Shown here: positions 28,801 to 31,800 of the stretch, one piece after another
How the letters are laid out: each line of letters begins with the position of its first letter
How positions within the stretch are numbered: position 1 is the first letter of the stretch
Source: Escherichia coli O157:H7
Lineage (GTDB): Bacteria > Pseudomonadota > Gammaproteobacteria > Enterobacterales > Enterobacteriaceae
Assembly (NCBI RefSeq): GCF_013167455.1
Contig: NZ_CP038328.1
Strand: one strand, 5' to 3'
DNA: 64,000 nucleotides
Position numbers: made by a program

Positions 28801-31800
28801 CTCGGCTCGTCCAGCAGCAATAGTGGCGGAGAGAGTGCTTCCAGGCAGGCGACGGCGACCATCCGTCGCTGCGCACTATGCAGATCCAACGGGTGCGCGC
28901 TGGCAGTGTCTGCTAACTGACAACATTGCAGGGCAGCATGGGTACGTTGAGTGATTTCATCCGCCGGGCATTTTTGCAGTTTCAAACCAAATGCGATCTC
29001 GTCAGCGACGGTGCTGTGAAAAAGTTGGTTTTCCGCTTCCTGAAACAGTACGCCAATCTTTGCCGCGCGCTGGCGGTTTTTCAGGTTTTTCATCGCCTGT
29101 TGTTGCAGCATAACCGTACCGGCTGTGGGCGTAAGAAGACCTGCCATTACTCGTAACAGCGTCGATTTCCCTGCGCCATTGTCGCCGGTCAACGCCAACC
29201 ATTCACCTTGTTTGAGTTGCAGAGAAATGTCGCAAAGACAATCCGTTGCCGCGCCAGGCCAGCGATAAGATATCTGATTTAACGTTAACATAGTGGCTGG
29301 AGCGCTCCGTTTTGCAATTGCCACGCTTGCTGGCAGTAGTTCAGGAAAGGTGTGCGATGACGTTCAAAAAGAATAATCAGCGAACCACGTTCAAACGCCC
29401 AGTGTTGTAAGCGCTGCAACAGCATTTCGCTGGCCTGCGGCGTCAGGCGGCTAAAGGCTTCATCAAGAATTAATAGCTTTGGCTGCATCGCGATGGCGCA
29501 GGCGATGACCACGCGCTGTGTCTCTCCACCGGAGAGTGTTGCCGGGTGACGATGGCGCAACGGCTGGCACTCGGTCAGAGTCAGGGCGGCATCAATCCGC
29601 GCCATAATCTCTGCTTCAGCAAGACACAGATTTTCTGGCCCAAAGGCAACTTCTTCTTCCACGCTAAAGGTACAGCCGGAGAGCTGCAAATAGGGCGATT
29701 GCTGGACGAGCTGGATGGTGGCGGATTGTTCATTAAGCGGGAGATGCCCAATGGGCGTACCGAGGAGCGTCCCCGTGCCTGTTATCTCTCCTGGCAGAAA
29801 GTCCGGATACCAGCCCGCCATCAGCTGTGCCAGCGTACTTTTGCCACTGCCGTTGTCACCAAAGATGGCGACCATCCCCGGTTTGACATAGTGAAAGTCA
29901 TAACAGAACGGAGGATGCGTTGAGTGTGTCGGGCAATAACGGAACTGTTCTAACGTAACCATATCCACGCTCCGAATTCTGTCAGCATCAGCAAGATCAT
30001 GGTGTAACGCGCTACGCGTTGTAGGGTGCTATCGGCTGGTGCCCACAACGTTGTTCGTCGGTTGTGGATCCGAAATGCCCGCATATCCAGCGCCGCACCA
30101 CGGACAGCAAGATCGTTTAGCGCATTGTGTGTTAGCGGAATAGTTAACGCGGGCATCGCACGTAAACGCTGATACCAGCCCTCATCCAGCGGCACGCCGC
30201 GGGCACGCTGCGCTTCATGAATAATCGCTAATTGCCGTTTTAACTGCTCAACGACCAATAACGGCCCGGCAAACAGATAAGCGACGCCCGGCGGCAGGCG
30301 AGAAGCAAACAGAGCGCGGATAAAACATTGCACGGGGACGTACTGCATCCACAACTGTGAGGTTGAAACAATCGCCAGAATCCGCAACCAGAGCGTAATA
30401 GCATGCGTCCAACGCTCCGGCGAACGCGGCGTGCCGCTTAGCCATTCTGTTAGCCAGCCACCGTGTACCAGCCACAGCCCGGCTCCCAGCGAGAACATCA
30501 GCCAGACGACATATTTTGCCCGCCGCCGCGTGGCCTTTAGCGCAATAAGGCAAAAAAAGGTCGCCGCGCTATAGATCGGCAAAATGGTCTGCGCGGGCAG
30601 GATAAGCGTGGTGCAGGCCGCCAATGCCCATAGTGTTAATGAGGTAAATGGATGCATTTAGCGCACGGCAGCCATTGCCGGAAAATGGCGCGTGGTGCGA
30701 ATCGGCAGCTGGCGCAGTAAAAGCCAGACAATCACCGCTGTAAGAGTTTTATCGACCAGGTTCGCGCCTATCACCGTAATCGCCACCGACTCCACCAGGT
30801 TTTGCCCCATCGAGTGCATCCAGGCAACGAACAAATCGGCTCCGCTACCGGTGACACCGCCGAACAGCGCAGTACGCAGCGGTACAGCGACGACCGTTAC
30901 CGCAAGCGTAATAATCACGCCGCTGACAACGACTTTTGGCAGGGTGCGAAACCAACCCGCTCGCGCCAGCCAACCGGCGACCAGGCCGATGACCATCGCG
31001 ACGGGGGCAAAAGCGGCAGCGATCGGGTCGGTCAGTAATCCCCAGAGTAAATTGGTCAGTAAGCCGGTCAGCATCCCGATCACCGGACCAAGCAGTACCG
31101 CGCTAATAAGTGTGCCGATGGAGTCGAGAAATATAGGTAATTTGACCATGCTGGCCAGTTGCCCGCCGATCATATTGATGGCGATAGATATAACGATCAA
31201 CACCAGTGCCTGACTGGAAAAGTGGCTACGCGCCATAAGAAAACCTCTCTGAAAGTAGTTATTTAACGGGGGAAATATGCAACTCGTCGTAACCAGAAAG
31301 CGCGCAAGGTTGGCGGCTAAACGCCAGTTCCTCAAGGCTACCGATCACCAGTTCAAGCGTGGTCCGCACGGTACAGCCGGGCATCATATGACCGCCAAGC
31401 ATCGTGCCGTGTGGATCGGAAACGCAGAGATGAAGATGCTCACCACTCTGTTCCAACGTGCCGTTTAGTGAGATCACTTCGAATGTACCGTTCAGGAGCG
31501 TGGTGCCTTCTTGCCCGGCATAGCGCAAGGCGATGTCAGTCAGGCTACCGGTACAGCCTGCAATCCAGGCGGCATGAAGTTGCTGCTGCTGTGCAAAAGC
31601 GTGTAGCTGGGAAAAAACTTCCTGCCCGGGGAGGAGGCGCAGTGCGTAAAAGCGTGCGGAGGAAGAATATGGGTAGGGCAATGTCATCATTGGAGTACTC
31701 CGAAACTCGGACGTATTACGGATAATATCGACGCTGCATCAGTCATATTCTGATATAAGTCAGGGTTTGTGACGGCACAACGAAAAGATTTTGCTACGCT

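What the first reader, a model, noticed from the sequence alone, without database searches (positions are those of the whole stretch)
31259..31690. PPC/DUF296 protein heads an ECF transporter operon
The 143-aa product has the conserved PPC-domain core known from plant AT-hook nuclear proteins and from uncharacterised prokaryotic proteins. Here it is the promoter-proximal gene, 22 nt upstream of the S component. That position suggests a functional link, for example as a cytoplasmic substrate-binding or modifying partner or a regulator, which would be a new accessory-component class for ECF transporters.
Basis: inference. Interest (0 to 1): 0.65.

Follow-up and report, generated by a model that had tools for sequence, protein, structure and literature searches.

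The report
LmiA, PPC protein heading ECF operon
The gene is lmiA of E. coli O157:H7, a published virulence regulator, and its position at the head of an ECF importer operon is conserved across many bacterial phyla, so the protein is probably a dedicated partner of that transporter and not only a regulator.

Summary
A 143-aa PPC/DUF296 ORF lies on the minus strand at 31259-31690. It sits 22 nt upstream of an ECF S component, followed by T and two ATPases.

What I found no paper describing is how tight the PPC-ECF link is. In 129 of 143 assessable loci holding this S family, a PPC gene lies directly upstream on the same strand. The 14 exceptions are all distant S relatives. More distant PPC homologues have no ECF genes nearby.

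Several features fit a cargo-handling protein better than a DNA-binding family:
- the fold resembles zinc enzymes;
- the protein is acidic;
- the His-x-His…His…Glu site is invariant;
- a third of close relatives look exported.

In five S lineages, YedF-like or SelD genes flank the operon, hinting at selenium or sulphur cargo. That reading is speculative.

Verdict: known gene, real and conserved linkage, mechanism unresolved.

The parts
31259..31690 (-). [not shown]
31237..31258 (-). 22-nt spacer between the lmiA stop and the S-component start, holding a GAGAGG ribosome-binding site
   Evidence: Read directly from the sequence. Across other loci the spacer ranges from -11 to 139 nt.
30658..31236 (-). 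ECF transporter S (substrate-capture) component, 192 aa
   Evidence: Pfam ECF_trnsprt PF12822 E=8e-08. NCBIfam NF045596 CD3073 family, 134.9 bits against a cut-off of 180. RefSeq annotation. No solved relative by sequence.
29950..30657 (-). ECF T (transmembrane coupling) component, 235 aa
   Evidence: Pfam CbiQ PF02361 E=5.7e-4. RefSeq annotation.
29285..29962 (-). ECF ATPase A, 225 aa; overlaps T by 13 nt
   Evidence: Best NCBIfam hits are ECF_ATPase_1/2 and cbiO, all below their cut-offs. RefSeq coordinates.
28614..29291 (-). ECF ATPase A', 225 aa; overlaps A by 7 nt, and its 3' end overlaps the convergent yggC by 29 nt
   Evidence: Best NCBIfam hits are ECF_ATPase_2/1. RefSeq coordinates.
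31848..31864 (-). Published PhoP-binding sequence GACTTACGTCACGTTTT in the lmiA promoter
   Evidence: Exact single match in the window. Sequence and function come from PMC7667037. The block is conserved across Enterobacteriaceae genera.
31750..31763 (-). Conserved palindrome CTGA(C/T)-N4-ATCAG, a CRP/FNR-type site centred 29.5 nt upstream of the -10-like hexamer
   Evidence: Alignment of 15 upstream regions and coordinates. On its own the pattern is not statistically distinctive. A regulatory role is inference.
31722..31727 (-). Conserved -10-like hexamer TATTAT
   Evidence: Not picked up by the strict consensus scan. Inference.
31698..31712 (-). Conserved inverted repeat GTCCGAG-TT-TCGGAG that contains the lmiA Shine-Dalgarno sequence
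   Evidence: One genus shows a double change that keeps the pairing. Function unknown.

Best explanation

Its PPC protein belongs to a subclade that is a dedicated partner of one family of ECF importers. Wherever this S component occurs at about 50% identity or more, a PPC gene sits directly upstream in the same operon. It is often translationally coupled. This is also shown.

The mechanism I favour is inferred. The PPC protein works in the cytoplasm through its invariant His85-x-His87...His101...Glu113 metal site, with a clade-specific Cys129. It receives, binds or chemically converts the cargo that the ECF module imports. That would make it a cargo-handling partner comparable to the trapping enzymes that accompany other vitamin and metal importers.

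The DNA binding and control of LEE1 and gadA/BC reported for LmiA in EHEC would then be an added or lineage-specific activity of the same protein. The cargo is unknown. Flanking YedF-like and SelD genes in several distant lineages make a selenium or sulphur species the best lead. In Enterobacteriaceae the operon is an old resident of the epd-yggC locus, activated by PhoP according to the literature and probably also under anaerobiosis.
For: Identity:
- The window is 100% identical to O157:H7 genomes.
- The residue numbering and the PhoP box match PMC7667037.

Partnership:
- 79 of 80 genome loci found with the S component have a PPC ORF directly upstream, followed by T, A and A'. The one exception is cut off by the end of the stored locus.
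- With the metagenome scan added, the count is 129 of 143 assessable loci, in 19 of 27 S lineages.
- The same order occurs on a Paracoccus yeei plasmid and in a Pseudomonas-like genome.
- Start and stop codons overlap by 1 to 11 nt in several lineages.
- PPC homologues at 47% identity or less in a Bacteroidota-like metagenome contig, Vibrio, Burkholderia, Variovorax, Nostoc and Ideonella have no ECF genes within 5 kb. The link is therefore specific to one clade.
- In an NJ tree, the homologues known to lack ECF neighbours fall outside the main ECF-linked clade.
- That clade has Cys where the others have Asp: 94% Cys, against Asp in 9 of 9 others.

Cargo-handling rather than a DNA-binding family:
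- R18, P21, G48, R56, E71, H85, H87, H101 and E113 are invariant in 36 diverse relatives.
- The pI is 5.5, with 6 Lys+Arg against 12 Asp+Glu. Nearly all of about 100 homologues have pI between 5.0 and 6.5.
- The sequence has no AT-hook (no R-G-R-P).
- 51 of 144 close cluster representatives carry extensions that look like signal peptides, lipoboxes or transmembrane segments.
- Fusion partners are mostly enzymes.
- Some loci have a separate LysR-type regulator next to the PPC-ECF operon.

Cargo lead:
- A homologue of the YedF C-terminal domain (TIGR03527, 105-109 bits, cut-off 110) lies directly upstream of PPC or directly after A' in 11 loci.
- SelD plus YedF, or SelD plus a DsrE-like gene, lies directly after A' in 2 loci.
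- These 13 loci fall in 4 of the 19 PPC-linked lineages. None of these genes occurs elsewhere in the flanks.
- A fifth lineage is counted on a softer hit, a selenium-associated LysR-type regulator just below its cut-off (246 bits against 250) transcribed divergently in L101. One of the four lineages also has a NifS-type cysteine desulfurase in L102.
Against: - Two papers report direct, sequence-specific DNA binding by purified LmiA (EMSA, DNase footprint of a 17-bp motif, motif mutants, ChIP-qPCR). They also report a delta-lmiA phenotype that deleting z4268-z4271 does not reproduce. The only tested function is therefore regulatory and independent of the transporter.
- A regulator as first gene of a transporter operon is a common design, for example arsR.
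- No enzymatic activity, ligand, or contact with ECF subunits has been shown for any bacterial PPC protein.
- The selenium-type neighbours are absent from the two large Enterobacterales lineages, including this window. They occur in only about a quarter of lineages.
- YedF/DsrE-like proteins also serve sulphur relay.
- The NJ tree is not robust. A small second ECF-linked group (L096, L101, L102) keeps Asp at position 129.
Confidence: 0.45

Rival explanations
1. The PPC protein is a cargo- or metal-sensing transcription factor. It binds DNA directly, controls its own ECF operon in every lineage, and in EHEC has been recruited to LEE1 and gadA/BC. The His3-Glu site is the sensor. The design is like ArsR- or NikR-type regulators encoded with their transporters.
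For: - EMSA, footprint, motif mutagenesis, ChIP-qPCR and reporter data exist for LmiA (PMC7667037, PMC11657066).
- The phenotype is independent of z4268-z4271.
- It is the first gene in the operon.
- Strict co-occurrence is also compatible with a dedicated sensor.
- STM3071 was studied as a potential regulator of the adjacent transporter.
- A UniRef name for the S. bongori orthologue is 'Putative regulator of transporter operon'.
Against: - No known DNA-binding fold or motif is present. The nearest non-PPC folds are zinc enzymes.
- The protein is acidic.
- A third of close relatives look exported.
- The published 17-bp LmiA motif is absent from the window, including its own promoter, even with 3 mismatches allowed.
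- Autoregulation has not been reported.
- Extra LysR-type regulators sit beside the operon in some lineages.
- Regulators are usually swapped between phyla, whereas this pairing is not.
- ChIP enrichments are modest, at 2.3- to 9.9-fold.
Confidence: 0.35
2. The operon is a cobalt or nickel ECF importer, as legacy annotation says, and the PPC protein is its cytoplasmic metallochaperone or metal-dependent regulator.
For: - T and the ATPases match CbiQ/CbiO-named models.
- The Salmonella operon is described as 'suggested to import Co2+' and as anaerobically activated.
- The His3-Glu site could bind Ni, Co or Zn (PMC7667037 proposes Zn).
Against: - The S component matches the general ECF_trnsprt family (PF12822) and the CD3073 family, with no hit to any CbiM/NikM model.
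- No CbiN-like small membrane gene lies in the operon.
- The CbiQ/CbiO names are generic for all ECF modules.
- YedF and SelD neighbours in other lineages are not explained by cobalt or nickel.
Confidence: 0.1
3. Adjacency without functional coupling: lmiA merely shares a promoter with an unrelated transporter.
For: Deleting z4268-z4271 does not reproduce the delta-lmiA virulence phenotype.
Against: The gene order PPC-S-T-A-A' is kept in 129 of 143 loci across at least six phyla, with overlapping or closely spaced genes. Chance or hitch-hiking cannot maintain that.
Confidence: 0.03

Closest known systems
[not shown]
   Same: It is the same gene. The sequence, the His85/87/101 numbering, the PhoP box and the four downstream genes z4268-z4271 all match.
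   Different: The papers call z4268/z4269 hypothetical and do not recognise the ECF transporter. They treat the island as horizontally acquired. Here the operon sits at the same epd-yggC position in Escherichia, Citrobacter, Salmonella, Klebsiella, Kluyvera, Atlantibacter and others, and the PPC-ECF pairing extends far beyond E. coli.
Salmonella STM3071 (PDB 2HX0, 2NMU) and V. cholerae VCA0587 (2P6Y), structural-genomics PPC proteins
   Different: The Vibrio-type homologues have no ECF genes nearby and carry Asp instead of Cys129. No function was assigned from the structures.
Dedicated (group I) ECF importers such as CbiMNQO, BioMNY and YkoEDC
   Same: One S, one T and two ATPases in a single operon, with no periplasmic binding protein.
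   Different: As far as I know and could find, none of these has a conserved soluble PPC-domain gene as first cistron. The S component is of another family with unknown substrate.
Plant AHL proteins (AT-hook plus PPC domain)
   Same: Same Pfam domain, PF03479.
   Different: In AHLs the AT-hook binds DNA and the PPC domain mediates trimerisation and protein contacts (established knowledge of that family). LmiA has no AT-hook, so the 'DNA-binding' product name is a transferred label.
Alpha-acetolactate decarboxylase and human PTD012 (zinc enzymes)
   Different: Sequence identity is only 10-21%. Equivalence of the metal ligands was not tested here. No catalytic activity is known for any PPC protein.
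YedE/YedF candidate selenium transport and trafficking genes
   Same: YedF-type genes and SelD flank the PPC-ECF operon in several lineages, as they flank yedE elsewhere (PMC5322559).
   Different: The membrane part is an ECF importer, not YedE. The E. coli operon has no such neighbours. The 2015 comparative-genomics paper does not mention this system.

Membership tests
PPC/DUF296 (Pfam PF03479) | Significant match to the family HMM over most of the domain | tested here: met
   E=4e-28, model positions 1-116 of 117.
PPC/DUF296 (Pfam PF03479) | The fold of solved PPC proteins | tested here: met
   [not shown]
PPC/DUF296 (Pfam PF03479) | Conserved His-x-His...His (+Glu) site | tested here: met
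   H85, H87, H101 and E113 are invariant in 36 diverse relatives and in all context classes.
PPC/DUF296 (Pfam PF03479) | Homotrimer | not testable with these tools
   Only a single-chain prediction is available.
[not shown]
ECF transporter, dedicated module | S component | tested here: met
   PF12822 E=8e-08. NF045596 E=2e-39, but 134.9 bits is below the 180-bit cut-off, so it is a relative of the CD3073 family and not a member.
ECF transporter, dedicated module | T component of the CbiQ family | tested here: met
   PF02361 E=5.7e-4, a weak match. RefSeq calls it EcfT. Homologues carry the same weak CbiQ hit.
ECF transporter, dedicated module | Two ABC ATPases in the same operon and no periplasmic binding protein | tested here: met
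   The best NCBIfam hits are the ECF ATPase models. Gene order is given.
CbiMNQO/NikMNQO metal ECF importers | CbiM/NikM-type S component plus a CbiN-type small membrane protein | tested here: not met
   The S component hits only PF12822 and the CD3073 family. No extra small gene lies in the operon.
AT-hook DNA-binding proteins (AHL type) | AT-hook R-G-R-P motif | tested here: not met
   The 143-aa sequence contains no G-R-P (read directly).
Selenium-utilisation gene neighbourhoods (SelD/YedF-linked) | selD, yedF or related genes adjacent to the operon | tested here: not met
   Not in this window, where the flanks are epd and yggC. Met in 13 loci of 4 other S lineages, plus a fifth lineage on a softer LysR-type hit.
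Alpha-acetolactate decarboxylase/PTD012-like zinc enzymes | Shared fold | tested here: met
   [not shown]
Alpha-acetolactate decarboxylase/PTD012-like zinc enzymes | Structurally equivalent zinc ligands and catalytic activity | not testable with these tools
   No residue-level superposition or model coordinates were available.

The most novel reading that the evidence does not exclude
The PPC-ECF operon is a dedicated acquisition module for selenium (or a related chalcogen). The ECF importer brings in a selenium species. The PPC protein captures or converts it at its His3-Glu/Cys129 site and hands it on to YedF-type carriers and SelD. This would be the high-affinity bacterial selenium uptake route that a 2022 review says has not been identified. 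It would also redefine bacterial 'PPC DNA-binding proteins' as cargo-handling metalloproteins. Apparent anaerobic activation in Salmonella and the conserved FNR/CRP-type site would fit supply of selenium to formate dehydrogenases.
Probability: 0.2. Interest if true: 0.85.

Novelty: already known. Interest (0 to 1): 0.45.

Why it matters
LmiA is treated in the EHEC literature as a horizontally acquired DNA-binding virulence regulator, and its four downstream genes are set aside as irrelevant. The comparative data say something different. The gene belongs to an ancient, tightly conserved PPC-plus-ECF module, and that module is ancestral at this locus in Enterobacteriaceae.

If the PPC protein handles or senses the transporter's cargo, LEE and acid-resistance control in EHEC would be wired to the availability of an unknown nutrient. 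It would also give the first physiological role for bacterial PPC/DUF296 proteins, which were solved by structural genomics about 20 years ago and never assigned a function. And it would add a soluble partner class to ECF transporters.

If the cargo is selenium, it would fill a long-standing gap in selenium biology.

Tried and rejected
- The search for related loci with PPC alignments A1 and A2 failed because no stretch was conserved enough. I searched with the better-conserved S component instead.
- A riboswitch scan of 12 diverse loci against Rfam found only tRNAs, so the cargo gets no clue from a leader RNA.
- The published 17-bp LmiA site is absent from the window, so there is no evidence of autoregulation through that motif.
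- The strict sigma-70 and terminator scans gave nothing beyond chance.
- The FNR consensus with up to 3 mismatches is non-specific in the window, with 301 hits. Only cross-genus conservation supports that site.
- Look-ups of two tree-predicted ECF-linked PPC proteins were uninformative: P0237 sits on a 1-kb contig and P0256 is not on record.
- No supplementary tables are held for the LmiA RNA-seq paper, so I could not check whether z4268-z4271 change in the delta-lmiA strain.
- The S component has no solved relative by sequence.
- Model coordinates are not exposed, so I could not measure the distance from Cys129 to the His triad.
- Flanking genes in Enterobacterales, Aeromonas, Paracoccus and Rhizobium give no consistent cargo hint.
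- PPC fusion partners are too heterogeneous to point to one chemistry.
- Literature searches for DUF296 (together with 'ECF transporter'), COG1661 and PF03479 found no paper on a bacterial PPC-ECF link. Many 'DUF296' hits were really DUF2961.
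Full report
**1. The observation**

Twenty-two nucleotides downstream begins a 192-aa ECF S component. It hits Pfam ECF_trnsprt at 8e-08 and the NCBIfam CD3073 family at 2e-39, below that model's cut-off. Next come a CbiQ-type T component and two ABC ATPases whose best models are the ECF ATPases. These genes abut or overlap. RefSeq annotates the same five genes.

**2. Identity**

The window is E. coli O157:H7. The 28500-31950 query spanning the operon is 100% identical in many O157 genomes, and 3319 of 5426 complete E. coli genomes hold at least 80% of it.

- PhoP binds GACTTACGTCACGTTTT in its promoter.
- LmiA binds a 17-bp site in the LEE1 promoter.
- Delta-lmiA lowers adherence and LEE expression.
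- Deleting z4268-z4271 has no such effect.

A second paper adds direct activation of gadA/gadBC and indirect effects on biofilm genes (PMC11657066). The PhoP sequence occurs exactly once in the window, at 31848-31864. The His85/87/101 numbering fits the ORF.

[quoted passage not shown] So the gene, a regulatory function and the operon are already on record. The EHEC papers did not recognise z4268/z4269 as ECF components.

**3. Is the PPC-ECF link real?**

*From the PPC side:*
- Relatives at 44-58% identity in a Pseudomonas-like genome, several metagenome contigs and a Paracoccus yeei plasmid all show PPC-S-T-A-A'.
- Relatives at 35-47% identity have no ECF genes within 5 kb. These come from a Bacteroidota-like contig, two Vibrio, four Burkholderiaceae, Variovorax, Nostoc, a Comamonadaceae bacterium and Ideonella.

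*From the S side:*
- An alignment of five S components retrieved 80 genome loci. They span Enterobacterales, Aeromonas, Ferrimonas, Wohlfahrtiimonas, Laribacter and other Betaproteobacteria, Rhizobium, Desulforhopalus, Synergistaceae, Chloroflexota and Spirochaetaceae.
- 79 of them have a PPC ORF directly upstream on the same strand. The remaining locus is truncated there.
- A metagenome scan seeded with distant S components gave 80 more loci.
- Overall, 129 of 143 assessable loci have the PPC gene. The 14 without it are all at the low-similarity end of the set (43-54% identity to the query). Several of these carry a PfkB-type kinase after A' instead.
- At 75% S identity there are 27 lineages. 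19 have PPC and 8 do not.
- The PPC-to-S spacing is -11 to 139 nt, with overlapping stop and start codons in several lineages.

The linkage is therefore a stable property of one PPC subclade and one S family. It is far beyond chance.

**4. What kind of protein is it?**

Other observations:
- In 36 diverse relatives, R18, P21, A40, G48, R56, E71, G77, H85, H87, G99, H101, E113 and L137 are invariant.
- LmiA is acidic, with pI 5.5 and 6 Lys+Arg against 12 Asp+Glu. Nearly all PPC proteins in the loci have pI between 5.0 and 6.5.
- It has no AT-hook, so the 'DNA-binding' product name is inherited from plant AT-hook proteins.
- By a simple heuristic, 51 of 144 close cluster representatives carry N-terminal extensions that look like signal peptides, lipoboxes or transmembrane segments.
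- Fusion partners are mostly enzymes.
- The main ECF-linked clade has Cys at LmiA position 129 in 94% of sequences, where all nine non-ECF homologues have Asp. A small second ECF-linked group (L096, L101, L102) keeps Asp.

These features argue that the family's common function is metal-dependent binding or chemistry on a small molecule, not DNA binding. They do not disprove the published DNA binding of LmiA.

**5. Cargo**

Rfam found no riboswitch in 12 diverse loci. Flanks in Enterobacterales are uninformative. Elsewhere a pattern appears:
- A homologue of the C-terminal domain of YedF lies directly upstream of PPC in nine loci (L093, L103, L112, L114, L115, L117, L119, L124, L126). It matches TIGR03527 at 105-109 bits against a cut-off of 110 and has a CxxC motif.
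- The same kind of gene lies directly after A' in two loci (L096, L120).
- SelD plus full-length YedF follow A' in L138.
- A DsrE-like gene plus SelD follow A' in Ferrimonas (L091).
- Two softer hits: a selenium-associated LysR regulator, just below its cut-off, is divergent in L101, and a NifS-type desulfurase is divergent in L102.

The 13 YedF/SelD/DsrE loci fall in 4 of the 19 PPC-linked lineages, and L101's LysR-type hit adds a fifth. No such gene occurs anywhere else in about 1.6 Mb of flanks. The 2015 selenium comparative-genomics paper does not mention this system. A 2022 review states that no high-affinity selenium transporter is known.

This is a lead, not a result. It is absent from the Enterobacterales lineages, and YedF/DsrE-type proteins also act in sulphur relay. 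The 'cobalt' label comes from generic CbiQ/CbiO naming. The S component is not of the CbiM type and there is no CbiN.

**6. Local context**

The operon sits between epd and yggC in Escherichia albertii, E. whittamii, Citrobacter, Salmonella, Klebsiella, Kluyvera, Atlantibacter, Silvania, Superficieibacter and others. It is therefore ancestral to Enterobacteriaceae at this site and missing from K-12-like E. coli. That is not the picture of a recent island.

An alignment of the upstream regions of 15 taxa shows four conserved elements:
- the PhoP-box block;
- a palindrome CTGA(T/C)-N4-ATCAG;
- a TATnAT hexamer whose first base lies 29.5 nt from the centre of the palindrome, which is the class II CRP/FNR geometry;
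- an inverted repeat that includes the Shine-Dalgarno sequence.

The palindrome agrees with the reported anaerobic activation in Salmonella. It is not statistically distinctive on its own.

**7. Conclusion**

Shown:
- the gene is lmiA;
- it is a true PPC protein;
- it heads an ECF operon;
- the pairing is conserved across phyla and specific to one clade.

Published by others: PhoP control and DNA-binding regulation of LEE1 and gad.

Inferred: the conserved role is handling or sensing the importer's cargo at the His3-Glu(/Cys) site. I favour cargo handling (0.45) over a pure cargo-sensing autoregulator (0.35). A Co/Ni chaperone or regulator gets 0.10, and mere adjacency 0.03. The most novel reading, a selenium acquisition module, gets about 0.2.

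Because the gene, its regulator role and the operon are already described, I rate the finding as already known. It carries a worthwhile new comparative angle, hence the moderate interest score.

Noticed in passing
window 31750-31763 and 31722-31727 (minus strand): A conserved palindrome CTGA(C/T)-N4-ATCAG is centred 29.5 nt upstream of a conserved TATnAT hexamer in 15 Enterobacteriaceae taxa. This is the class II CRP/FNR geometry, and it fits the reported anaerobic activation of the Salmonella operon. The pattern alone is not significant in the window.
   Followed up: partly
window 31698-31712 (minus strand): A conserved inverted repeat GTCCGAG-TT-TCGGAG contains the lmiA Shine-Dalgarno sequence. 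Superficieibacter has CCGGG...CCCGG, a double change that keeps the pairing. It could be a translational hairpin or an operator.
   Followed up: partly
window 31926-31939: CTGAAACGCTTCAG, a Cra (FruR)-box-like palindrome, is strongly conserved across genera in the part of the intergenic region nearer to epd. It probably belongs to epd-pgk control, not to lmiA.
   Followed up: no
window 27929-33081; loci L024-L069: 'O island 119' sits at the same epd-yggC position in many Enterobacteriaceae genera. It looks ancestral and lost in K-12-like E. coli, not recently acquired as the LmiA papers assume.
   Followed up: yes
L092 6578-8677; also L095, L113, L141, L145, L146, L152, L158, L183: In Synergistaceae and several metagenome loci, the T component and both ATPases are fused into one ORF of about 700 aa. 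Pfam finds CbiQ plus two ABC_tran domains in the L092 ORF.
   Followed up: partly
L142, L157, L159, L177 (and the related L143, L148, L150, L154, L173-L182): A sister S-component family at 43-47% identity lacks the PPC gene. In several loci a PfkB-family kinase follows the second ATPase, which looks like a transporter-plus-trapping-kinase layout.
   Followed up: partly
Proteins P0130, P0133, P0142, P0156, P0162, P0202, P0203 and others: About a third of the closest 50%-identity cluster representatives of LmiA have N-terminal extensions that look like signal peptides, lipoprotein boxes or transmembrane segments. This suggests that many PPC proteins work outside the cytoplasm.
   Followed up: partly
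window 28614-28642: The 3' end of the last ECF ATPase gene overlaps the 3' end of the convergent yggC (nucleoside/nucleotide kinase family) by 29 nt, with no terminator-like site found between them.
   Followed up: no
L135 3765-4349; L136 2695-3279: These S-component relatives (51-54% identity) stand alone, with no PPC, T or ATPase genes beside them.
   Followed up: no
L096 2792-3808; L098 1016-2029: A D-cysteine desulfhydrase/cysteate sulfo-lyase family gene lies a few kb upstream of the PPC-ECF operon in both Chloroflexota loci. It is another sulphur or selenium-type neighbour, but the two genomes are closely related.
   Followed up: no
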